Positions 15,186-34,999 of a stretch of DNA of 64,000 nucleotides are shown piece by piece. The notes beneath the pieces are model-generated. The model did not search any database, had not been told where the DNA came from, and was given only the letters and a program-made list of their open reading frames with translations. The number at the start of each line of letters is the position of its first letter. Positions within the stretch are counted from its first letter, which is position 1. Source of the DNA: an uncultured Candidatus Rokubacteria bacterium (GTDB lineage Bacteria > Methylomirabilota > Methylomirabilia > Rokubacteriales > DASRDR01); NCBI GenBank assembly GCA_963826115.1, contig CAWGVS010000012.1, positions 288,001-352,000 of the forward strand, written 5' to 3'. The translations under genes and the position numbers were made by a program.

Positions 15186-16751
15186 TCAGCGCGTGATGAT
15201 CTCGTACTCGTCCTTGTGGAGCCCGGGCACAGTCTGGACGGTGACCTTCCGCTGAATCCGCCGCTGGAGCACCTCCAGTCCCTCCGACTCCTCCTCCTGG
15301 AGGTACGCCGCCAGGTCCGGGTTCACGCGAATCAGCACCTCCTGCCCCGAGATGTCACGGGTGGCCACCTGGATCTTCCGGTAGATCTCGGCCGTGAGAC
15401 CCGGCGGCGACTTCACCACCCCCGTACCCTTGCAGGTCGGGCAGGGCTGCATCAGCAGCGAGTGCAGGCTCTGGCGCACGCGCTTCCGGGTCATCTCGAC
15501 CAGGCCGAGCTCGGAGATCTCGAGCACGTTCGTGCGCGACTTGTCGTCTCCCAGGGCGCGCTTCAAGGCGCGGAACACCTGGGCCCGGTGATCCTCCTGG
15601 TCCATGTCGATGAAGTCGATGATGATGATGCCGCCCAGATCGCGGAGGCGGATCTGCCGGACGATCTCGCCGACCGCCTCGAGGTTGATCTTGAGGATCG
15701 TCTCCTCGAGATCCCGCTTCCCGACATACTTGCCGGTGTTCACGTCGATCGACACGAGAGCCTCGGTGTGGTCGATGACGAGGTAGCCGCCGGACTTGAG
15801 CCAGACCCGCCGCCGGATCGCCTTGTCGATCTCCTTCTCGATCCCGCGCGCCTCGAAGACCGACTCCCGCTCGGCGTGCAGGTGGATGCGATGGGCGAGG
15901 GCAGGCACGAGGGCCTCGGCGTACTCGAGCGCCCGACGGTACTCCTCCTCGCCGTCGATCAGGATCTCCTCGATGTCGGCGGAGAAGAGGTCCCGGACTA
16001 CCCGGAAGACGAGGTCGCCCTCCTCGTGGAGCGCCGCGCGGGCCGGCGCCTGGGCGAAGCGCGCCTGGACCTGCTGCCAGACGCGGACCAGGAACTGGAT
16101 GTCGGCGCCGAACTCGACCTCGCCCTTCCCCTCCCCCACCGTGCGGACGATGAAGCCGCCGCCCCCGGGGGGCCGGAGGTTCCGGACGAGCTGCCGCAGC
16201 CGGTCCCGCTCCTCCGCGTCATGGATCCGCCGGGAGACGCCGAGGTGGTTCACCTGGGGCATGTACACGAGGTAGCGGCCCGGCAGGCTGATGAAGGAGG
16301 TGATCCGGGCGCCCTTGGTGCCGAGGGACTCCTTCGACACCTGGACCAAGATCTCCTGACCCTTGCGGAGGACGTCCTCGATGGGCGTGATCGCCCGCCG
16401 CTCGCGCTCGGGCGGGGCCTCGGGGGAGCGTCCGCCCTCGCCGCCGGCGCCGGGCTCCTCGCCTTCGAGCTCGATGTCGACGTCCTCGTCCTCGGCGAGC
16501 ATCATTCGCTCGTACTCGCCGAGGTTGGCGATGAAGTCGCCCGCGTAGAGGAAGGCGTCCTTGGCCAGGCCCACGTCGACGAACGCGGCCTGCATCCCGG
16601 GCAGGACGTTCGTTACGACGCCCTTGTAGACGTTCCCGACGATGGACCGGTGGCGGCGGCGCTCGATGAAGAGCTCGGTGAGGACGCCGCCGTCGAGGAC
16701 GGCGACTCGGGTCTCGCTGATACCGGCGTTGACCACGATCTGGCGTGCCAT
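15186..16751 (-). CDS. rng: Ribonuclease G (Rne/Rng family)
   Basis: GNVYKG..VLPGMQAAFVD, SIDVNTG, RLRDLGGIIIIDFIDM, CPTC.G.G; no RNase E C-terminal extension. Confidence 0.9.
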   Translation of the reverse strand: MARQIVVNAGISETRVAVLDGGVLTELFIERRRHRSIVGNVYKGVVTNVLPGMQAAFVDVGLAKDAFLYAGDFIANLGEYERMMLAEDEDVDIELEGEEPGAGGEGGRSPEAPPERERRAITPIEDVLRKGQEILVQVSKESLGTKGARITSFISLPGRYLVYMPQVNHLGVSRRIHDAEERDRLRQLVRNLRPPGGGGFIVRTVGEGKGEVEFGADIQFLVRVWQQVQARFAQAPARAALHEEGDLVFRVVRDLFSADIEEILIDGEEEYRRALEYAEALVPALAHRIHLHAERESVFEARGIEKEIDKAIRRRVWLKSGGYLVIDHTEALVSIDVNTGKYVGKRDLEETILKINLEAVGEIVRQIRLRDLGGIIIIDFIDMDQEDHRAQVFRALKRALGDDKSRTNVLEISELGLVEMTRKRVRQSLHSLLMQPCPTCKGTGVVKSPPGLTAEIYRKIQVATRDISGQEVLIRVNPDLAAYLQEEESEGLEVLQRRIQRKVTVQTVPGLHKDEYEIITR

Positions 16752-16896
16752 GGGTCGGTGGCTCCCGCAGAGACGCCAGGTCCGCCCGGGCCTGCCCGCC
16801 CCCCGCACCGCCCGGGGCGTGGGCGCGCGACCGGCCCATCGGGGCCGGCGCGCCCAGATCCCGCAGGACGGGGCGAACGGAGACGGAGCAGCATGC

Positions 16897-17973
16897 TCAA
16901 GCGAAGCGACGCATCCGCACGTTGGCAATCAGGGCGACGGCGCCGACGGCCGTCAGGAGGGCCGAGCCGCCATAGCTGAGGAAGGGGAGGGGAATTCCCA
17001 CCACCGGCAACAGCCCCGTCACCATCCCCAGGTTGATCAGCGCCTGGGTGGCGAGGAGCACGGTGGCCCCGGTGGCGAGCAGGCTGCCGAGCGCGTCCCG
17101 CGCCGTGGCCGCGACCTCGAAGCCGCGGAGCACGAGCAGGACGTACACGATCAGCAGCGCAATCGCCCCGAGGAACCCCCACGATTCGGCGAAGGCGGCG
17201 AACACGAAGTCGGTGTGGCGCTCCGGCAGGAACGCGAGGCGGCTCTGGGTGCCTCCGAAGAGGCCCTTCCCCGCCAGCTGGCCGGAGCCGATGGTGATCT
17301 TGGCCTGAATCACGTTCCAGGCTGTGCCGAGCGGATCCCGCGACGGGTCGACGTACACGAGGATCCGCTCGCGCTGGTAGTCGCGAAGGAGAAACCAGAG
17401 CGCCGGCAGCACGGCGAGGCCACAGCCGGCGAGCATTCCGAGGTGTCGCCAGCGGGCGCCGCCCACGATGATGAGGGCCGCCGCCACCGGCAAGAGCGTG
17501 AGCGCGGTGCCGAGATCGGGCTGCTTGACGATCAGGCCGACCGCGGGAAGCGTCAGCGCCAGCGGGATGACCACGCGGTCCCAGCCGGGCCGGTACGACT
17601 CCCGGGCGGCCAGGTAGACCGCCAGCGTCCCGATGAACGCCAGCTTGAACAGCTCCGAGGGCTGGAGGCCGATCGGCCCCACCTGGATCCAGCGCCGCGC
17701 CCCGAGGGCGGAGCGACCGGCGATCAGGACGCCGACCAAGGTCAGCAGGCCCAGCCCGTACGCCCAGCAAGCCCAGCGCGCGAGCGTGCGGTAGTCGACG
17801 GCGAGCACGACCATCGCGGCCACCGAGGCGATCCCGAGGGCGATCAGCTGCCGGGCGCCCAGGCGCGGCACGAGGGTCGACACCGTCACGAGCCCCGCGA
17901 CGATCAGGAGCCCGGCCAGCCCGAAGAGCTGCCAGTCGAACTGGACCAGGAGCCGGCGGTCAACGCGCAGCAC
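16897..17973 (-). CDS. rodA: Rod shape-determining protein RodA (SEDS family)
   Basis: GARRW, QPSELFK, QPDLGT, LPERHTDF and PFLSYGGS motifs; follows mrdA. Confidence 0.93.
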   Translation of the reverse strand: MLRVDRRLLVQFDWQLFGLAGLLIVAGLVTVSTLVPRLGARQLIALGIASVAAMVVLAVDYRTLARWACWAYGLGLLTLVGVLIAGRSALGARRWIQVGPIGLQPSELFKLAFIGTLAVYLAARESYRPGWDRVVIPLALTLPAVGLIVKQPDLGTALTLLPVAAALIIVGGARWRHLGMLAGCGLAVLPALWFLLRDYQRERILVYVDPSRDPLGTAWNVIQAKITIGSGQLAGKGLFGGTQSRLAFLPERHTDFVFAAFAESWGFLGAIALLIVYVLLVLRGFEVAATARDALGSLLATGATVLLATQALINLGMVTGLLPVVGIPLPFLSYGGSALLTAVGAVALIANVRMRRFA

Positions 17974-22177: not shown

Positions 22178-22442
22178 CTAACCATCGCCTCCTGGGACGG
22201 ACTCAACGTCGGCTTCGACGATAGCACAACGCCGTTCGGGGGACCAAGTCTGGTTCTCAAGATATTTTCGCCTGTGTCCACCATAGGTTACACCCCTCAT
22301 CCGGGGGGTCATGCCTGGTCTCGACGGCGGAGAGCCACAAGGTGGGCCTCGCCTGACCCGGTCACGGGGCCCGCTTGACACCCCGCGCACCGTGCGCCCA
22401 TCCTCGGCCGGCGCCGGCCCACGCCCGGCGCTGCGCCGCACG

Positions 22443-22925
22443 ATGGAGCCCGACGCCGCTCGCCAGGCCGAAGAGTTCTTCCGCGCCGGTCACGCCGCGC
22501 ATCTGCGCGGCGACCTGGACGACGCGATCGAACTCTACCACCGGTCTCTCGCCTGCGTGCCCACCGCGGAGGCCCACACGTTTCTCGGCTGGTCCCTGTC
22601 CGCGAAGGGAGACTACGAGGGGGCCATCCGGGAGTGCCACCGGGCGATCGCGATCGATCCGGACTTCGGGAACCCCTACAACGACATCGGCTCCTACCTG
22701 ATCGCGCTGGGCCGGCCCATCGACGCGGTCCCGTGGCTCCGGAAGGCGATGAGCGCAGGGCGCTACGAGCCCCGGCACTATCCGCACGTGAATCTCGCCC
22801 GCGTCTACGTGAAGCTCGGACACATCGACGCGGCCATCGCCCAGCTGCGCGTGGCGCTGGCGATCACGCCTCAGTACCGGCCGGCTCGCACCGAGCTCCA
22901 CCGTCTGCTCGGCCTGCTGAACTGA
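22443..22925 (+). CDS. Small TPR-repeat protein
   Basis: PTAEAHTFLGW, DPDFGNPYNDIG and consecutive TPR helices. Confidence 0.8.
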   Translation: MEPDAARQAEEFFRAGHAAHLRGDLDDAIELYHRSLACVPTAEAHTFLGWSLSAKGDYEGAIRECHRAIAIDPDFGNPYNDIGSYLIALGRPIDAVPWLRKAMSAGRYEPRHYPHVNLARVYVKLGHIDAAIAQLRVALAITPQYRPARTELHRLLGLLN

Positions 22926-22949
22926 ACTGAGCGCGCGGGACGCGCCGGG

Positions 22950-23215
22950 CCAGAAAATAAGGAGCCCCGAGGGAGTCTGCGGCCCACTGCCGCGTCCGGC
23001 GCAGGCCGCCCCGCAGGTGAGGTCGCGGGACCCTCGGGGCCGGTGGTGCCTGGATCCTCCCAGGCGAGCCACCCTCGCTACTTAACGGGTGCGCACGACC
23101 TAGGAGGTCACCACCTCACAACTCACCGGTTGACTGCCACTCACGGCTGGACCACCTCCTTTCTCGGCGCACCCACCACGCGGGTCCAAGCACCCGCCAC
23201 CGAGAACCGGCCGCC
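22950..23215 (-). ncRNA. Candidate structured RNA with a 21-nt anti-16S element and a 14-codon micro-ORF (family not recognised)
   Basis: Several consecutive inverted-repeat domains, AGAAAGGAGGTGGTCCAGCCG, and a 3' U-rich tail, in a gap with no credible long CDS; boundaries approximate. Confidence 0.45.
23100..23144 (-). CDS. Candidate micro-ORF MSGSQPVSCEVVTS (GTG start)
   Basis: GTG AGT GGC AGT CAA CCG GTG AGT TGT GAG GTG GTG ACC TCC TAG, directly after an extremely strong SD. Confidence 0.35.
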   Translation of the reverse strand: MSGSQPVSCEVVTS

Positions 23216-23335
23216 GATTGCCGGCCCGCGGCTCGATCCGCTCCGCCCGGCTCTTCCGTCGGGTTCGGCGCGCGAGGGGGCTGTGTAAACCCCGATCGAC
23301 TCGCGGACATCCTACGCTCGGCCCGGAAAGATTGT

Positions 23336-23659
23336 CTACGGGATTCTGTCCGCCTCATCCGCCAGGCGCTCGAGGTAGGCGGCCCACTCGACGGGGAGCA
23401 GGTACTTCTTCGCGGCGTTGCACGCGCGGCACGCGGGCACGAGGTTCGACCGGACGGAACGCCCGCCCCGGACCAGCGGGACGCGATGATCCATCGTGAG
23501 CTCCCGCGCCGGCGTGGGCTGTCCGCAGTACTCGCATCGTTCCCGGCCCAGTCGGCGCTTCCACCAGGCGCTCGCTCGGATCTCGCGGGCCCGGGCCTTC
23601 TCGCGCCGGACCTCCTCCGCGGTGACCGGGCTGACGAAGCCGCCCGCGGGCGGCGTCAG
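23336..23659 (-). CDS. Small HNH endonuclease (start uncertain, probably CTG 23659)
   Basis: REKARAREIR..WWKRR, CEYC, TMDH.VP..RGG, NLVPACRACN motifs. Confidence 0.8.
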   Translation of the reverse strand: MTPPAGGFVSPVTAEEVRREKARAREIRASAWWKRRLGRERCEYCGQPTPARELTMDHRVPLVRGGRSVRSNLVPACRACNAAKKYLLPVEWAAYLERLADEADRIP

Positions 23660-24282
23660 CGCGTCAGGACTCGCGCCAGGAGGTCGGACGGGTGGTAGTT
23701 CGTCGCGGGGTTCCATTGCTGGGGGCAGGCCGAGACCACGGCCAGGCAGTCCACGAACGCGCGCAGCAGTACCCAGTCCCCCGCCTCGGTCCGGGGCGGG
23801 CCGAACGTCACGCGCCCGTCCGGGCGCACGGCGACGTTCATGAAGAAGTTCACGGGTTGCGGGACGATCGGACAGCTCGCGCCGAGAGTCCGCAGGGCCG
23901 CGTGGAAGTTCTCGGCGCACGAGGCGTGTCCGGGGACGTGGTACTGCGCGTAGCGGGCCGGGTCGCAGGCCGCGAAGAGCATGTCGTGGACGCCGGGCGT
24001 CCGGTCCTCCTCGAACTGAAGCAGGGGCCGCCGGAGGCTCGAGAAGAACGACTGGCCGACCTCGGGGAACAGCCGGTCGATCTGGACGCGCGTGTGGGAC
24101 GCCGAGAGGTACTCGGCGGGATTCGCGGCGGCGAGCGTGAAGAAGTCCGCGCACCCGCGCCCCTCCACGTCCACGATCTGGACGTACTCGCCGGCCGCCA
24201 CTCGCAGTCCCACGCCGGTCCCGGCGGGGATGGAGAACTCTCGGCCGATCTTCAGGGCGTCGGCGCGCGCCGGATGGCCCAC
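23656..24282 (-). CDS. DUF1989 / urea carboxylase-associated family protein
   Basis: IVDVEG..CADF, HDMLFAACD, SCAENF, PVNFFMNV and SACPQ..NP.N motifs. Confidence 0.85.
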   Translation of the reverse strand: MGHPARADALKIGREFSIPAGTGVGLRVAAGEYVQIVDVEGRGCADFFTLAAANPAEYLSASHTRVQIDRLFPEVGQSFFSSLRRPLLQFEEDRTPGVHDMLFAACDPARYAQYHVPGHASCAENFHAALRTLGASCPIVPQPVNFFMNVAVRPDGRVTFGPPRTEAGDWVLLRAFVDCLAVVSACPQQWNPATNYHPSDLLARVLTR

Positions 24283-24307: not shown

Positions 24308-25846
24308 TCAGGACGCCGGGCGCGCCGGGCGCTTCTCGAGCGCCAGGTCCTGGGCCCGCCCCGCCGGGACCAGGAACGCCGAGAGGAGCGCCAAGGACGC
24401 GATCCCGAGACCGACGAGGAACACGGCGTGCAGCGCGTTGGCGAGTCCCTGGCTGAACGCGCTCAGCACCGCCGGCGGGAGCGCGCTCCGGAGGGTCGGC
24501 TCGATCAGCGCGTCCGGGTGCGCGATGAGCGCTTCGAGCTGGGTCCGGGCGGGGCCGTCGAGCCCCCCCAGCACGGTCCGGAGCTGCCGGCCAAGCTCGG
24601 CGGACAGCACGGCGCCCATCACGGCCACGCCGACGGCCCCCCCGATCGACCGGAAGAAGGTGGTCGCGGAGGTCGCCGCGCCGAGATCCGCCTTGGGCAC
24701 CGCGTTCTGCACCGCCAGGAGGAGCGGCACCATGATGAGCCCCATCCCCATGCCCGCCAGCAGCATGTTCCGCCACGTGGCGGCCTGGGTCGTGCTGAGC
24801 CCCATGTGGCTCATGAGCAGGAACGCGACCGCGAGGCACATCATCCCGCCGACGACCGGCCAGCGGTAGCCGACGCGGAGCAGAAGCCGCGCCGACACGA
24901 CGGAGAAGGTCACCCACCCGAGGACGAACGGGGTCAGCGCTGTTCCCGCCTCCGTCGCCGTGCCGCCGAGCACGCCCTGGACGAAGAGGGGAATGAAGGA
25001 GATGGTGCCGAACATCGCCATGCCCGCCAGGAACCCGGTGACGGCCGCCGCCCGGAACATGCGGTTGGCGAACAGCCGGAGCGGCAGGAGAGGCTCCGGG
25101 GCGTGGCGCTCCCAGCGGGCGAACTCGACGAGCAGCCCCACCGAGAGGGCGGCCAGCACGGCGTGGCCGAGTCCGAACCGTCCCGCCCGGCCGCCCTCCA
25201 CGAGCGCGGCGAGGAGGCCCGCCAGGCCGGCGGTCAGCAGCGCGGCGCCGCGGAAGTCGACCTTCACCCCGCGCCGCGGGCGGTCGGTCCCGGCCAGCGC
25301 GACCCAGAGGATCGCGCCGGCGAGGAGCCCGAACGGGATGTTGACGAAGAACACCCAGTGCCAGGACAGCCGGTCGGTCAGGAAGCCGCCGATGAGCGGC
25401 CCGACGATCGACGCGAGTCCCCACGTGGCCGAGAAGTACCCCTGCATGCGCGCGCGCTGCTCGAGGCCGTAGAGGTCCGCGATGATCGTCATGCCGAGCG
25501 GGATGAGCGCCCCGCCGCCCAGCCCCTGGAGCGTCCGGCAAGCGATCAGGAACGCCATCGACGTCGAGAGGCCCGAGAGGACCGACCCGACGAGGAAGAT
25601 CGTGAGCCCCGAGAGGTACACGCTCCGGCGCCCGTAGAGGTCCGCGAACCGCCCCCAGAGCGGCATCGAGATGGTCGCGGCGAGGATGTACGCCGAGAAC
25701 ACCCACGAGTAGATGGCGAGGCCCCCGAGGCTCGCGATCACCGTCGGCATCGCGGTCGCGACGGCGGTCGACTCCATGGCGCCGAGGAAGAGCCCCAGCA
25801 TGACGCCCGAGACGACGAGCCCGCGGCGCGGCGGGGCCGCGGTCAT
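24308..25846 (-). CDS. DHA2-type (MDR) MFS efflux transporter
   Basis: GRFADLYGRR motif A, LQGLGGG, GPLIGGFL and WHWVFFVNIP motifs; ATGA coupling. Confidence 0.9.
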   Translation of the reverse strand: MTAAPPRRGLVVSGVMLGLFLGAMESTAVATAMPTVIASLGGLAIYSWVFSAYILAATISMPLWGRFADLYGRRSVYLSGLTIFLVGSVLSGLSTSMAFLIACRTLQGLGGGALIPLGMTIIADLYGLEQRARMQGYFSATWGLASIVGPLIGGFLTDRLSWHWVFFVNIPFGLLAGAILWVALAGTDRPRRGVKVDFRGAALLTAGLAGLLAALVEGGRAGRFGLGHAVLAALSVGLLVEFARWERHAPEPLLPLRLFANRMFRAAAVTGFLAGMAMFGTISFIPLFVQGVLGGTATEAGTALTPFVLGWVTFSVVSARLLLRVGYRWPVVGGMMCLAVAFLLMSHMGLSTTQAATWRNMLLAGMGMGLIMVPLLLAVQNAVPKADLGAATSATTFFRSIGGAVGVAVMGAVLSAELGRQLRTVLGGLDGPARTQLEALIAHPDALIEPTLRSALPPAVLSAFSQGLANALHAVFLVGLGIASLALLSAFLVPAGRAQDLALEKRPARPAS

Positions 25847-26163
25847 GCGTCGGCCCCTCGCCGCGTGGTGGCGCACTGGGCGCAGGGACACCGGCCGCGC
25901 AGCTCGACGTAGGGGATCGTCGACGCGTGATCGTCCTGCCACTGGACGCGGAGCGCCGACGGCTCGCGCCGGATCTCCGTCGGCCAGGCCTCCCCGGCCG
26001 GCGGACAGGCGCCGCACGGGCACGCCGCGCGCAGCATGGTGAACGGGTAGATGCTCCCGTGCCGGTCCTGCCAGGTCACGCCGAGCGCGTAGCGCCCCAC
26101 GAGGGACACGGCGTCGGGGCGATTCGGGTCGGCGCCGACCAGCGGGAGGAGCGAGCGGGCCAT
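25843..26163 (-). CDS. DUF971 / GBBH-like N-terminal domain protein with two CPCxxC motifs
   Basis: VGRYAL..W.D.H..IY...LRAACPCGAC and W.DDH.S..Y..LR..CPCAQC. Confidence 0.75.
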   Translation of the reverse strand: MARSLLPLVGADPNRPDAVSLVGRYALGVTWQDRHGSIYPFTMLRAACPCGACPPAGEAWPTEIRREPSALRVQWQDDHASTIPYVELRGRCPCAQCATTRRGADA

Positions 26164-26174
26164 GGGAGGCTCCG

Positions 26175-27146
26175 TCAGGCGCCGCGGGCCGCCGACGCCG
26201 GCGCGGCGCTCTGGCGGACCCGGGCGTGCGCCGCGAGGAGGTAGTGCGTCGCGAGGCTCCGGTGCGGGCGCCACGCTTTGGCGCGGCGTCGGACCGCGGC
26301 CGCGTCCCGCTCGCGGCCGCGGAAGCAGAGGACCTCGATGGCGCGCCGGACGCCGAGGTCGTCCGCGGGGCAGATGTCGGGCCGTCCGAGCCCGCGCGCC
26401 AGGAACCACTCGGCGGACCAGCGGCCCAGCCCACGGACCGCCGTCAGCCGCGTCACGACGACTTCGTCGGGCGCGGCGGCGAGCGCCGCCGGGTCGAGCC
26501 GGCCGTCCGCGAGCTCCCGGGCCAGTCCCACGATGTACTCGGCCTTGCGTTGCGAGAACTGCATGGCGCGCAGCTCCGCGGGCGGCGCCGCCGCCAGCGC
26601 GGCCGGCGCGGGGAACGCGTGGACCGTCACACCCTCGAACTCGAGCGGCGTCCCGTAGCGGCGCACGAGGCGCGCCCGCGTCGCGAAGGCGAACGCGAGG
26701 TTCACCTGCTGGGCGCTGATCGCACCCACCAGCATCTCGAACGGGTCCGGCGCGAGCGTGGGGCGCAGACCGAACAGCCCGCCCGTCGGCCGGACCAGCG
26801 GCGCGAGCACCGGATCGGCGGCCGCGGCCGCGTAGAACGCGCGGAGGTCCCATCCCTCGCCCAGGAGCCGCGCCGCTTCGTGCCGGAGGGCGGCGCGCCG
26901 CGCCGGCGTGTCCGGCCCCGCAAAGGCCAGCGTCGCCCGCGGCTGCGCGGGCGGGCCCGTAACCGTCAGGCGGAACGGGACCAGCCGGCCATCGACGCGG
27001 GCGACCCGGTGGAGCGTCCCATCACGATAGGGGCTGGCCGGGTCCGGGCCCCAGCGTCCGTAGCGCTCGAGGGTCTGGTGCGCGTTGAGCGGAGCCCGTG
27101 GTCGGAACGCGAAAACTGCCCGTCCGCTTCGTGAAGGCGCCAGCAT
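26175..27146 (-). CDS. alkA: DNA-3-methyladenine glycosylase II (HhH-GPD family)
   Basis: AISAQQV, FP.P, RGLGRWSAE (HhH), PADDLG and WRPHRS motifs. Confidence 0.85.
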   Translation of the reverse strand: MLAPSRSGRAVFAFRPRAPLNAHQTLERYGRWGPDPASPYRDGTLHRVARVDGRLVPFRLTVTGPPAQPRATLAFAGPDTPARRAALRHEAARLLGEGWDLRAFYAAAAADPVLAPLVRPTGGLFGLRPTLAPDPFEMLVGAISAQQVNLAFAFATRARLVRRYGTPLEFEGVTVHAFPAPAALAAAPPAELRAMQFSQRKAEYIVGLARELADGRLDPAALAAAPDEVVVTRLTAVRGLGRWSAEWFLARGLGRPDICPADDLGVRRAIEVLCFRGRERDAAAVRRRAKAWRPHRSLATHYLLAAHARVRQSAAPASAARGA

Positions 27147-34123: not shown

Positions 34124-34537
34124 TCAGAACGGTACGTCGTCGGCGCCGCCCGCCGCAGCCTCCTCGACCGGCTCCGCGTCCGGGGAGCCGCCGGGGCCAC
34201 CCGCGCGGCCGCGCCCGAGGAACTGCAGCCGCTCGGCCACAACCTCCACGACGTTCCGCTTCTGCCCGTCCTTGGTCTCCCAGTCCCGGGTCTGGAGCCG
34301 CCCCTCGACGAGAACCGGGCTGCCCTTGTCGAGGTACTGGGCCCCGCTCTCCGCCTGCTTGCCCCACACGACGACCGTGAGGAAGCACGTCTCCTCGCGG
34401 CGCTCTCCACCCTGGGTGGTGTAGGACCGGTTCACCGCGAGCCGGATGTCCGACACCGCGGTGCCGCTCGGTGTGTACCGGAGCTCCGGCGCACGGGTGA
34501 GGTTGCCGATCAGGAAGACCTTGTTCATGCTCGCCAT
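34124..34537 (-). CDS. ssb: Single-stranded DNA-binding protein
   Basis: NKVFLIGNLT..PELRYTPSG, VEGRLQTR and C-terminal DDVPF. Confidence 0.97.
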   Translation of the reverse strand: MASMNKVFLIGNLTRAPELRYTPSGTAVSDIRLAVNRSYTTQGGERREETCFLTVVVWGKQAESGAQYLDKGSPVLVEGRLQTRDWETKDGQKRNVVEVVAERLQFLGRGRAGGPGGSPDAEPVEEAAAGGADDVPF

Positions 34538-34908
34538 CAACCGACCTCGCTCGCCGCCGGGGCCACCGACCCTGCCGGCGCCGCCGCGGCCGCGGCCTCG
34601 ACAGCCGCCAGCCTCCGCCGTCCCTCGACCTGGCGCATCGTCAAGAAGCGGAGCACCGATTCGTTGAGCTTCAGCTGCCGCTCGAATTCGCGGATGGCCG
34701 ACGGCATCGCACGCACCTGGAGGAGCAGGTAGTGCCCCTCCCGCTGCTTGCGCAACTCGAACACCAGCCGGCGGCGGCCCCAGTCCTCGGCGCTCACCAC
34801 CTCGCCGCCCTGGGCGACGAGGGCCTCCTGGATGCGTCCGCTACGCTCGGCGACCTCCTCGTCCGTGAGCCGGGGATCCACGATCAACAACATGTCGTAC
34901 ATGCGCAT
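34537..34908 (-). CDS. rpsF: 30S ribosomal protein S6
   Basis: MR.Y, WG.RRL and VLRF motifs; first gene of the rpsF-ssb-rpsR operon. Confidence 0.93.
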   Translation of the reverse strand: MRMYDMLLIVDPRLTDEEVAERSGRIQEALVAQGGEVVSAEDWGRRRLVFELRKQREGHYLLLQVRAMPSAIREFERQLKLNESVLRFLTMRQVEGRRRLAAVEAAAAAAPAGSVAPAASEVG

Positions 34909-34912
34909 GCCC

Positions 34913-34999
34913 GATCACCTCCTTCCACGTCTCCGACAGCAACGCCCGGAGCAGGCTCGAAAGCGCTTTAGGATACCAGCGGCCTCGGCGGGGGTGCAA
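34913..34999 (-). promoter_or_regulatory. rpsF promoter (TTGCAC-18-TATCCT, extended -10) and hairpin leader with SD AAGGAGGTGATC
   Basis: Motifs read on the minus strand; CTCCG...CGGAG hairpin just before the SD. Confidence 0.5.

What the first reader, a model, noticed from the sequence alone, without database searches (positions are those of the whole stretch)
23100..23164. 21-nt complement of the 16S rRNA 3' end driving a 14-codon micro-ORF in a gene-free gap
Seen: plus strand 23144-23164 is CGGCTGGACCACCTCCTTTCT. Known: a common bacterial 16S end is ...CGGCTGGATCACCTCCTTTCT, so this is 20/21 identical. The minus-strand RNA AGAAAGGAGGUGGUCCAGCCG could pair at all 21 positions (the one difference is a G-U wobble), extending beyond the anti-SD into the helix 45 strand. 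It runs straight into GTG...TAG (MSGSQPVSCEVVTS), which holds a second SD-like GAGGTGGT before its stop, and no long gene follows. The rpsF SD (AAGGAGGTGATC) supports a canonical 16S tail in this organism. Inference: an undescribed ribosome-binding RNA (30S sponge, hibernation or 16S maturation antisense) or a highly translated micro-peptide locus. This is the best candidate for a novel system in the window.
Basis: partly seen in the sequence, partly recalled or inferred. Interest (0 to 1): 0.85.

Follow-up and report, generated by a model that had tools for sequence, protein, structure and literature searches.

The report
Ribosome-docking small mRNA, rre/Ms_IGR-5 type
The flagged 21 bases are the ribosome-binding site of a free-standing, folded RNA of about 350 bases carrying a tiny 14-codon reading frame; this kind of RNA is already published in other bacteria, and its function is still unknown.

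Summary
Window 23144-23164 matches 20 of 21 bases of this organism's own 16S 3' end, and the minus strand reads as a giant Shine-Dalgarno (SD) site running into GTG plus 13 codons.

It is not an isolated motif in an empty gap. It is the core of a single-copy RNA gene of about 350 nt on the minus strand (~23302 to ~22950). The gene has a conserved sigma-70-type promoter, 14 helices with strong covariation support and a branched intrinsic terminator. A match was found in 107 of 151 genomes of the phylum.

The reading frame, its length, start and stop are conserved (116 of 117 loci across four phyla). The peptide's first half evolves freely. The SD is folded against an anti-SD-like stretch at the end of the frame.

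The kind is already described:
- rreB/rreR "small mRNAs with an extended SD" (Hahn et al. 2017) bind 30S subunits and are weakly translated.
- Rfam RF02471 (Ms_IGR-5) is the actinobacterial relative. The window scores only ~20 bits against it, and the link runs through intermediates.

Function remains unknown. This scan has found the same family before on other DNA, several times. This copy is a longer lineage variant from a Rokubacteria-like organism.

The parts
23309..23338 (-). Sigma-70-type promoter: TAGACA (23338-23333), 18-nt spacer, TAGGAT (23314-23309), preceded by an A/T-rich tract
   Evidence: the only promoter-like site in 22700-23700 (shuffles give a mean of 0.0); a -10-like hexamer stands at the same distance from the conserved 5' edge in 34 of 34 aligned relatives, counted by eye (TAGGAT 28, TACGAT 5, TACACT 1). 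A TTGGAC/TAGACA-like box lies ~17 nt upstream.
23165..23302 (-). 5' structured domain (helices 1-7) of the RNA; transcription start inferred near 23302
   Evidence: helices 1-5 and 7 each carry 2-5 pairs with changes on both sides. Alignment A1 is conserved up to the ...AATCG edge, 7-10 nt after the -10 box. RNA-library contigs reach 23260 (X3, ending in Illumina adapter) and 23282 (X4).
23144..23164 (-). Extended Shine-Dalgarno block AGAAAGGAGGUGGUCCAGCCG. It can pair with 21 nt of the 16S 3' end (20 Watson-Crick pairs and 1 G-U); its last base is the G of the GTG start
   Evidence: The block GGAGGTGRTCCAG is present in all 37 sequences. The sister family f2 has a perfect Watson-Crick GGAGGTGATCCAGCCG.
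23100..23144 (-). Micro-ORF: GTG plus 13 codons plus TAG (MSGSQPVSCEVVTS)
   Evidence: Intact in 37 of 37 sequences of the order. A qualifying ORF is in the same frame in 116 of 117 loci across phyla and in 0 of 117 in either other frame. Indels inside it are multiples of 3.
23102..23160 (-). Helix 8, the SD-sequestering hairpin. AGGAGGU.G.CCA.CC (23160-23144) pairs with GG.UGG.U.ACCUCCU (23118-23102). The loop holds the first ~9 codons after the start
   Evidence: RNAalifold consensus. 99.1% of cells are paired, 8 of 13 pairs never vary and none changes on both sides. The GGAGG core has an unpaired probability of 0.01 or less in the folded full-length RNA.
23042..23073 (-). Helix 9 (GGUGG with CCACC) enclosing the CCUGG...CCAGG hairpin, whose loop carries a further GGAGG-like motif
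   Evidence: 97-100% paired but nearly invariant, so covariation does not test it.
22950..23041 (-). Branched intrinsic terminator: outer stem GGCCCCGAGGG / CCCUCGGGGCU, two inner hairpins, then a U-rich tail (UCCUUAUUUUCU)
   Evidence: Helices 12-14 carry 4, 3 and 4 pairs with changes on both sides. Relatives have clearer T-runs. The simple terminator scan missed it because the stem is branched.

Best explanation
The 21-nt complement of the 16S end is the ribosome-binding site of a stand-alone, single-copy, structured small mRNA of about 350 nt, transcribed from the window's minus strand (~23302 to ~22950). It is a long, Rokubacteria-type variant of the 'extended-SD small mRNA' kind: rreB/rreR in alpha-proteobacteria and, more remotely, Ms_IGR-5 in Actinomycetota.

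Shown here: own promoter, own terminator, a covarying fold, a conserved frame, start and stop of a 13-15-codon ORF, free evolution of the peptide's first half, and presence in soil RNA libraries.

Inferred mechanism:
1. In the free RNA the SD core is locked in helix 8 against an anti-SD-like ACCUCCU at the end of the ORF.
2. The few unpaired bases just 5' of the SD (GAA) act as a toehold for the extreme 3' end of 16S rRNA.
3. The 16S tail then displaces helix 8 and the RNA docks on the 30S subunit. The predicted duplex energy is -29.9 kcal/mol against -21.6 for the hairpin.
4. The over-long SD and the GTG start keep translation weak.
5. What matters is that a ribosome engages and reads this short frame up to a fixed stop, not the peptide itself. 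That engagement remodels the RNA and probably sets its lifetime.

The downstream biological output is unknown.
For: - Conservation: blastn matches in 39 of 41 relatives. Model R1 hits 107 of 151 genomes of the phylum; in the 107 genome rows with a match, the matches column is 1.
- Promoter: present in 34 of 34 aligned relatives.
- Structure: 83 pairs, 96.9% of cells paired against 33-51% when the partners are slid. 27 pairs change on both sides against 4-15 when slid. 0 of 500 shuffles reach the observed values.
- Strand: conserved G-U pairs fix it.
- ORF: 37 of 37 intact in the order; 116 of 117 across phyla against 0 of 117 in the other frames. Starts ATG 45, TTG 40, GTG 31. Stops TAG 98, TAA 11, TGA 7. 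The stop lies 8 nt after GAGGUGG in 115 of 116.
- Peptide not selected: loop codons show 57 synonymous against 266 non-synonymous pairwise differences (18% against 25% expected). Variable sites by codon position are 11/10/8.
- SD masking and energies.
- RNA libraries: contigs from 4 soil metatranscriptome studies cover 22961-23282. One is a 322-nt contig spanning 22961-23260.
- Published analogue: rreB has a 17-nt SD that includes the first base of GTG and 14 codons. It binds 30S and is weakly translated. It has a 5-nt single-stranded seed followed by a hairpin. Changing its start codon to a stop raises the half-life from 10 to 37 min (PMC5711450, abstract and sections 13, 14, 17, 19).
- Ms_IGR-5: a stand-alone sRNA unit in Streptomyces, with ribosome footprints in M. 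abscessus and M. smegmatis (passages only).
Against: - No binding, translation or stability data exist for this RNA or this phylum. The mechanism is carried over from one alpha-proteobacterium.
- Helix 8 is almost invariant, so covariation neither supports nor refutes it.
- The RNA-library data are assembled contigs. They cannot show strand, ends or level, and DNA carry-over is possible.
- Family scores fail the curated thresholds: RF02471 19.6-20 bits against a cut-off of 45, and RF01867 10.5 bits against 75.
- The order-built model R1 finds only 2 of 68 actinobacterial loci at E<0.01. Convergence on a similar design cannot be excluded for the most distant groups.
- The 5' part of the complement (AGAAA) is not conserved in the sister family, although the 16S tail is identical in the 7 genomes examined. 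The toehold is therefore less than universal.
- The pairwise codon counts are not independent, because the sequences are kin.
Confidence: 0.72

Rival explanations
1. An ordinary small-protein gene. The 14-residue peptide is the functional product, and the RNA structure and long SD only tune its synthesis.
For: - Frame, length, start and stop are conserved in 116 of 117 loci.
- The C-terminal C-E-V-V-[TA]-S is invariant or nearly so in the order.
- Hahn et al. report that RreB and RreR peptides are well conserved within their clades (sections 13 and 18).
Against: - Codons 2 to n-7 show no excess of synonymous change (18% against 25% expected), and variation is spread evenly over codon positions.
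- The conserved C-terminal codons are the 3' strand of helix 8, so RNA constraint explains them.
- Peptides differ between phyla...CEVVTS...TREVAVR...EVADS.
- About 300 nt of covarying structure lies outside the ORF.
- The synthetic RreB and RreR peptides were unstructured.
Confidence: 0.1
2. A trans-acting base-pairing sRNA. Its C-rich stretches (ACCUCCU, CACCACC, the CUCACCUG loop) bind the SD regions of target mRNAs. The RNA's own SD-like motifs act as a built-in lid, and ribosome access to the micro-ORF opens it.
For: - Several invariant C-rich and G-rich motifs lie paired to one another.
- The gene is stand-alone, with no conserved neighbour across phyla.
- Ms_IGR-5 was recovered as an sRNA. 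I did not read the original report, which is not held.
Against: - No target was predicted or tested here.
- The anti-SD-like ACCUCCU is absent from the actinobacterial members, which read GGCUGCCCGCUAG at that place. It cannot be the family's common active site.
Confidence: 0.1
3. A 30S sponge or hibernation-type RNA that titrates small subunits through the long SD.
For: - It has the longest 16S-tail complement in the genome when G-U pairs are allowed.
- Up to four GGAGG/GGUGG-like motifs sit in one RNA.
- It assembles from soil RNA libraries.
- rreB sits on 30S subunits.
Against: - It is a single-copy gene.
- The SD is masked in the free RNA.
- Overproducing the ribosome-binding rreB RNA did not affect growth, and ribosomes greatly outnumber it (PMC5711450 section 19).
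Confidence: 0.05
4. Not a gene: an rDNA relic on the plus strand, an assembly chimera or a chance match.
For: The plus strand literally carries 20 of 21 bases of the 16S end.
Against: - Identity to 16S stops at the 21 bases; the flanks differ.
- The locus is conserved with promoter, covarying helices and terminator on the opposite strand across the order.
- R1 matches 107 of 151 genomes of the phylum.
- Chance expectation is 0.01.
Confidence: 0.01

Closest known systems
rreB / rreR 'small mRNAs with an extended Shine-Dalgarno sequence' (Hahn et al., RNA Biol 2017;14:1353; PMC5711450; abstract and sections 13, 14, 17, 18, 19 read)
   Same: - Stand-alone transcript with its own promoter and terminator.
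- A 16-17+ nt complement of the 16S 3' end whose last base is the G of a GTG start.
- A 14-codon (rreB) or 18-codon (rreR) sORF.
- Most of the complement buried in a conserved hairpin, with a few free 5' bases as a seed.
- Genomic context not conserved between lineages.
- Function unknown.
   Different: - Reported only in alpha-proteobacteria, whereas this organism is Rokubacteria-like.
- rreB is 165 nt; this RNA is about 350 nt. It has a ~135-nt covarying domain upstream of the SD and a branched terminator.
- The complement here is 21 nt with one G-U and reaches 6 bases into the helix 45 strand.
- No sequence homology is detectable: RF01867 scores 10.5 bits, E 9.7. The equation of RF01867 (CC2171) with rre comes from earlier AI notes; I did not check it.
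- 30S binding, weak translation and start-codon-dependent decay are shown for rreB only.
Rfam RF02471, Ms_IGR-5 ('Actinobacteria sRNA')
   Same: - Same order of parts: AAGGAGGUGRUCC near the front, a 12-14-codon ORF, GUGAGGUGG with the stop 8 nt later, then ...CACC(N)CGGCCCCGAG opening a terminator.
- A full-length alignment to model positions 1-184, which is the best hit in the genome.
- Graded scores through intermediates: Mycobacterium 189.5, Micromonospora 98.5, Streptomyces 85.2, Blastocatellia 52.3 and a Thermodesulfobacteriota MAG 34.7 bits. That last one scores 99.5 bits with the window-order model.
   Different: - The window scores 19.6-20 bits against a gathering score of 45.
- Actinobacterial RNAs start ~10 nt before the SD, lack the 5' domain and lack the ACCUCCU anti-SD mimic.
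- R1 finds only 2 of 68 actinobacterial loci.
- None of the papers I could search describes the long SD or the ORF of Ms_IGR-5.
SD-masking hairpins of translational riboswitches and RNA thermometers (general principle, recalled, not tested)
   Same: An intramolecular anti-SD stretch pairs with the SD, so ribosome access depends on opening a hairpin.
   Different: Those elements control a downstream protein gene in cis. Here the only frame is 14 codons and lies inside the hairpin itself, and the RNA ends at a terminator with no downstream gene.

Membership tests
rre-type extended-SD small mRNAs (Hahn et al. 2017) | Free-standing small transcript with its own promoter and terminator | tested here: met
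   Promoter (34 of 34). Terminator helices 12-14 covary. RNA-library contigs cover 22961-23282.
rre-type extended-SD small mRNAs (Hahn et al. 2017) | At least 16 nt complementary to the organism's own 16S 3' end, spanning the canonical SD and ending at the first base of the start codon | tested here: met
   21 nt with 20 Watson-Crick pairs and 1 G-U, ending on the G of GTG. Strictly contiguous Watson-Crick runs are shorter in the window, but the sister family has GGAGGTGATCCAGCCG perfect.
rre-type extended-SD small mRNAs (Hahn et al. 2017) | Conserved sORF of about 14-18 codons, usually with a GTG start | tested here: met
   14 codons with GTG in the window. 13-15 codons in 37 of 37 sequences. 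116 of 117 across phyla.
rre-type extended-SD small mRNAs (Hahn et al. 2017) | Most of the complement buried in a conserved hairpin, with a short single-stranded 5' seed | tested here: inconclusive
   Predicted consistently, and 99.1% of cells are paired. The helix is invariant, so there is no covariation proof. The seed bases vary in the sister family.
rre-type extended-SD small mRNAs (Hahn et al. 2017) | Physical association with 30S subunits, weak translation and start-codon-dependent turnover | not testable with these tools
   Bench properties, known only for B. japonicum rreB.
rre-type extended-SD small mRNAs (Hahn et al. 2017) | Sequence or profile similarity to alpha-proteobacterial rre RNAs (Rfam RF01867 CC2171, as equated in earlier notes) | tested here: not met
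   RF01867 scores 10.5 bits against a gathering score of 75, E 9.7.
Rfam RF02471 Ms_IGR-5 | Infernal score at or above the gathering score (45 bits) | tested here: not met
   19.6 bits, E 0.026 in 601 nt. 20 bits, E 0.05 for the whole genome. In one search the control genomes ring below cut-off in 7 of 14 at E<=10.
Rfam RF02471 Ms_IGR-5 | Shared architecture: long SD, 12-14-codon ORF, GUGAGGUGG with the stop 8 nt later, CACC-CGGCCCCGAG terminator entry | tested here: met
Rfam RF02471 Ms_IGR-5 | Homology supported by intermediates that both models detect | tested here: met
   L053 scores 34.7 bits, E 2.8e-4 with RF02471 and 99.5 bits, E 4e-18 with R1. L103 (Blastocatellia) scores 52.3 bits with RF02471.
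Rfam RF02471 Ms_IGR-5 | Reciprocal detection of actinobacterial members by a model built only from the window's order | tested here: not met
   R1 hits 4 of 80 loci at E<=0.01: L120, L053 and 2 of 68 actinobacterial loci at ~29 bits (default filters).
Housekeeping RNAs (6S, RNase P, tmRNA, SRP RNA) | The element is the genome's copy of one of these | tested here: not met
   All four are found elsewhere in the genome above their cut-offs. There is no gathering-level Rfam hit at the locus.

The most novel reading that the evidence does not exclude
The invariant CCAGCCG extension, which is complementary to the 3' strand of 16S helix 45, may be functional. On this reading the RNA pairs with all 21 nt only on small subunits whose helix 45 is not yet formed or locked (immature or damaged 30S). 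That would make this lineage's RNA a sensor or chaperone of late 30S maturation rather than a mere mRNA. More broadly, the rre and Ms_IGR-5 RNAs would be one ancient, multi-phylum class of ribosome-state-sensing RNAs.
Probability: 0.05. Interest if true: 0.85.

Novelty: new variant of a known kind. Interest (0 to 1): 0.4.

Why it matters
Extended-SD small mRNAs are a published class without a known function, reported so far only in alpha-proteobacteria. Ms_IGR-5 is catalogued as an actinobacterial sRNA, and the papers I could search mention neither its long SD nor its ORF.

This locus and its relatives show the same design in a Rokubacteria-like order, in Acidobacteriota and in a Thermodesulfobacteriota MAG. 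It is single-copy and near-universal within lineages. The reading frame is kept while the peptide drifts.

That points to a widespread, probably old way of coupling an RNA's fate to docking on the ribosome's anti-SD tail. It also offers culturable carriers in which to test this, such as M. smegmatis and Streptomyces. For genome annotation, Rfam's thresholds miss the element in this phylum.

Tried and rejected
- Housekeeping RNA in disguise: rejected, since 6S, RNase P, tmRNA and SRP RNA are all elsewhere in the genome.
- Plus-strand rDNA relic or chimera: rejected.
- Cis-leader of a neighbouring gene: rejected. The RNA ends in a terminator facing a convergent TPR gene. Neighbours differ between phyla: msrA, RNase Z-like, pdxH-like, ABC transporters (I named these by reading translations, not by Pfam). 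Only a small HNH gene upstream is shared within the order.
- Covariation between the RNA's 5' extension and the 16S terminus: uninformative. The 16S tail was identical (CCUCCUUUCU) in all 7 genomes with a real 16S end. One further match (G125) was not a 16S gene. The script then stopped with an error, so 5 more genomes were fetched but not examined.
- The simple terminator scan found nothing; the real terminator is branched.
- The first synteny clustering was muddied by overlapping spurious ORFs in high-GC DNA and by multi-domain links. I used it only for the HNH and mreB observations.
- Coverage outside the element in the RNA libraries was nil for the HNH gene. On the TPR side there were only short, loosely fitting pieces with loose ends. 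I do not use this absence as evidence.
- Literature: the original Ms_IGR-5 report (Li et al. 2013, PMC3527728) is not held, so I did not read it. Two mycobacterial sRNA reviews cite it only in their reference lists. The TRIC-seq preprint on 16S 3'-extension tethering and the S. meliloti small-proteome paper did not bear on this RNA.
- Searches for the conserved peptide strings, for RF02471 and for rreB follow-ups found no paper giving a function or a wider distribution.
The rreB extended alignments (Fig. S1) and the Ribo-seq data sets of PMC4974804 could bear on peptide conservation and translation, and I did not see them.
- I ran no protein database search, structure prediction or complex prediction, because the peptide (14 aa) is below the tools' length limits.

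Unpublished genomes: the tallies (39 of 41; 107 of 151; 104 of 121) include unpublished genomes, G038 in all three and G080 and G119. No alignment, model or figure of mine uses their sequences.

Note: one of the 39 (G001, 70% complete) has only a 28-nt weak match. The two without a match are 79% and 88% complete.
Full report
**1. The observation**

The plus strand at 23144-23164 reads CGGCTGGACCACCTCCTTTCT. The genome holds one 16S gene, and its 3' end reads ...CTGCGGCTGGATCACCTCCTTTCT. The stretch is therefore 20 of 21 identical to the organism's own 16S end. The minus-strand RNA could pair at all 21 positions, with one G-U. It runs straight into GTG AGT GGC ... TCC TAG (MSGSQPVSCEVVTS), and the G of GTG is the last base of the complement.

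This is not chance:
- The 16-mer with up to 2 mismatches occurs twice in the window against 0.01 expected.
- It occurs twice in the genome, here and in the rDNA.
- Among 31,623 GGAGG sites in the genome, this one has the longest Watson-Crick plus G-U run against the 16S tail outside the rDNA: 21, with the next at 17, 16 and 16.

With strict Watson-Crick counting it is not the longest. That script scored a run of 10 for this site, and other sites reach 15, 13, 13 and 12. Long SDs are rare in this genome but not unique to this locus.

**2. What surrounds it**

Gene order along the minus strand (Pfam):
- MFS transporter, 24308-26434
- DUF1989, 23656-24282
- a small HNH gene ending at 23336
- the intergenic stretch
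- a convergent TPR gene, 22311-22925 (+)
- mreB and mreC

The whole intergenic stretch, not just the 21 bases, is conserved. blastn finds it in 39 of 41 relatives, down to ~70% identity across the order. One of the 39 is only a weak 28-nt match. The two without a match are 79% and 88% complete.

6S RNA, RNase P RNA, tmRNA and SRP RNA are all elsewhere in the genome. Rfam gives no gathering-level hit here.

**3. A complete RNA gene on the minus strand**

An alignment of the window with 33 relatives (A1) is conserved from ...AATCG at its 5' edge to a U-run.

- *Promoter.* Upstream of that edge, all 34 sequences carry a -10-like hexamer: TAGGAT in 28, TACGAT in 5, TACACT in 1. About 17 nt further up is a TTGGAC/TAGACA-like box, and before that an A/T-rich tract. 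In the window this is TAGACA-N18-TAGGAT at 23338-23309.
- *Fold.* RNAalifold predicts 83 pairs in 14 helices.
- *Controls.* 96.9% of cells are paired, against 33-51% when the partners are slid. 27 pairs change on both sides, against 4-15 when slid. None of 500 shuffles reaches the observed values.
- *Strand.* Conserved G-U pairs (columns 83/116 and 294/384, for example) would be mismatches on the other strand, so the RNA is the minus strand.
- *Terminator.* The 3' end is a branched intrinsic terminator whose three helices all covary.
- *Extent.* The RNA runs from about 23302 to about 22950, roughly 350 nt.

**4. RNA libraries**

Twelve runs on record as RNA hold 27-41% of the sampled words of a 541-nt query. 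Contigs of four runs from four studies were laid on 22600-23700 and cover 22961-23282:
- X1: a 235-nt contig on 22971-23205.
- X3: a 322-nt contig on 22961-23260, ending in Illumina adapter at 23260.
- X5: 23039-23250.
- X4: pieces from 23010 to 23282.

These are assembled contigs. They show that the sequence is present in RNA libraries as short units the size of the element. They do not show strand, ends or abundance, and DNA carry-over cannot be excluded.

**5. The micro-ORF is kept; the peptide is not**

- In the order, 37 of 37 sequences have an intact ORF of 13-15 codons starting 10-11 nt after GGAGG. All end in C-E-V-[VD]-[TAP]-S-stop.
- Indels inside the ORF are 3, 3 and 6 nt long.
They lie mostly in Actinomycetota, and also in Acidobacteriota, one Thermodesulfobacteriota MAG and one Ca. 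Rokuibacteriota MAG.
- Over 117 loci, 116 have an ORF of 10-20 codons in the GAG-GTG frame, and 0 have one in either other frame.
- All three start codons and all three stop codons occur. The stop lies exactly 8 nt after GAGGUGG in 115 of 116.
- These loci are kin, and they were chosen by the two motifs, though not by the ORF.
- In the loop codons, pairwise single-base differences are 57 synonymous against 266 non-synonymous. That is 18%, against 25% expected from random change. Variable sites are spread 11/10/8 over the codon positions (45 loci, 30 distinct ORFs).
- The conserved C-terminal codons coincide with one strand of helix 8.

I read this as selection for a ribosome reading a frame of fixed length to a fixed stop, not for the peptide.

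**6. The SD is masked**

In the consensus fold, AGGAGGU.G.CCA.CC pairs with GG.UGG.U.ACCUCCU. The latter is the internal SD-like GAGGUGG plus an anti-SD-like stretch that ends at the stop codon (helix 8).

- The helix is 99.1% paired but nearly invariant, so covariation cannot test it.
- In the folded 363-nt RNA, the GGAGG core has an unpaired probability of 0.01 or less.
- The hairpin alone folds at -21.6 kcal/mol.
- The duplex with the free 16-nt 16S tail is -29.9 kcal/mol.
- The bases GAA just 5' of the SD are unpaired, so they could act as a toehold.
- The further CAGCCG complement would need the 3' strand of 16S helix 45 to open. That assignment of helix 45 is recalled from the E. coli numbering and was not tested.

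**7. Relation to known families**

*Rfam RF02471 (Ms_IGR-5).*
- It aligns over its whole length to 23001-23169 (-), but at only 19.6 bits (gathering score 45; E 0.026). This is still the best hit in the genome (20 bits, E 0.05).
- The same model scores 189.5 bits (Mycobacterium), 98.5 (Micromonospora), 85.2 (Streptomyces), 52.3 (Blastocatellia) and 34.7 (the Thermodesulfobacteriota MAG, E 2.8e-4) on loci from the scan. Three further loci (L120, L067, L084) gave no hit at E<=0.1.
- A model built only from the window's order (R1) scores 115.6 bits on the Rokuibacteriota contig and 99.5 bits on the Thermodesulfobacteriota one. It finds only 2 of 68 actinobacterial loci, at ~29 bits.
- The link to Ms_IGR-5 is therefore remote and rests on intermediates and shared architecture. 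By Rfam's own criterion the window is not a member.

*What is known of Ms_IGR-5* (passages only):
- It is RNA-seq validated in S. lividans.
- It is a stand-alone sRNA unit in S. avermitilis.
- It carries ribosome footprints in M. abscessus and M. smegmatis.
- IGR-5 equals ncMSMEG15794c.
- No function is given in any of these passages.

**8. The published kind**

Following a lead in earlier notes of this scan, I read Hahn et al. (PMC5711450: abstract and sections 13, 14, 17, 18, 19). Their findings on rreB of Bradyrhizobium:
- It is a 165-nt mRNA with its own promoter and terminator.
- It has a 17-nt perfect complement of the 16S end that includes the first base of its GTG start, and a 14-codon sORF.
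- It co-sediments with 30S subunits.
- It is weakly translated, because of the long SD and the GTG.
- Its half-life rises from 10 to 37 min when the start codon is replaced by a stop.
- Only the 5 most 5' bases of the complement are predicted single-stranded, and the authors propose them as a seed.
- Overproduction did not affect growth, and the function is called elusive.
- Similar genes (rreR, 18 codons) were reported only in alpha-proteobacteria.

The window's element matches this description feature by feature. It shows no detectable sequence similarity to that group: RF01867 scores 10.5 bits. The equation of RF01867 with rre comes from the earlier notes and I did not check it.

**9. Distribution and lineage**

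- R1 finds a match in 107 of 151 genomes of the phylum; in the 107 genome rows with a match, the matches column is 1.
- By family: f1 9/10, f2 85/94, f4 1/1, f8 11/12, f7 0/18, f11 0/7, other small families 0 (stricter filters applied).
- The named contig L120 (title: Candidatus Rokuibacteriota) has the same length, match coordinates and score as G023:C120. G023 is a genome of the window's order. The window's organism is therefore probably of that candidate phylum.
- These tallies include the unpublished genomes G038, G080 and G119.

**10. What differs from the published forms**

- The RNA is about twice as long as rreB.
- It has a ~135-nt covarying domain upstream of the SD.
- It has an anti-SD mimic closing the ORF.
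- Its complement reaches into the helix 45 strand.
- In the sister family the 5' AGAAA part is degraded (AAUA, AUA, AAAG), while the 16S tail is unchanged in the 7 genomes examined. There, GGAGGUGAUCCAGCCG is perfectly Watson-Crick.

**11. Verdict**

This is a real, conserved RNA gene. The kind, however, is already published and its function is still open. This scan has met the family repeatedly on other DNA. I rate it a new lineage variant of a known kind, of moderate interest.

Noticed in passing
window 34913-34925 (-), ORF 34537-34908 (-), ORF 34124-34540 (-): GAAGGAGGTGATC, a 12-nt exact complement of the 16S tail, sits 4 nt before the ATG of an ORF that reads like ribosomal protein S6. 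An SSB-like ORF follows. Ordinary highly expressed genes here can also carry long SDs. I identified the genes by reading the translations only.
   Followed up: partly
window 16293-16308 (+): GAAGGAGGTGATCCGG is a 13-nt exact complement of the 16S tail. It lies antisense inside a long minus-strand ORF (15186-16928, RNase E/G-like by my reading), so it is probably not a ribosome-binding site.
   Followed up: no
window 23336-~23640 (-); L037 -947..-642 and -2577..-940 relative to the element: A small HNH endonuclease gene (Pfam HNH) sits directly upstream of the RNA's promoter throughout the order. In the sister family an ABC-F-like ATPase precedes it and a DEAD-box helicase lies convergent downstream (by reading). 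A link to translation is possible but untested.
   Followed up: partly
L051 (G024:C401), between the micro-ORF and helix 9: This relative carries an insertion of roughly 80 nt inside the element. I left it out of alignments A1 and A2.
   Followed up: no
G065:C270:1674-1690 and G065:C293:4353-4369: Two antisense-of-element matches occur in one relative, although model R1 reported one match there. This may be a second copy or a split or duplicated contig.
   Followed up: no
G000:C10:366894-366910 (+) and G000:C12:783388-783402 (-): These are the next-longest complements of the 16S tail in the genome: 17 nt with G-U pairs, and 15 nt exact. I did not examine their contexts.
   Followed up: no
L065 (uncultured Actinomycetota contig): This is the only 1 of 117 pattern matches without the micro-ORF; a 49-codon frame stands there instead. 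It is probably a chance match to the search pattern.
   Followed up: no
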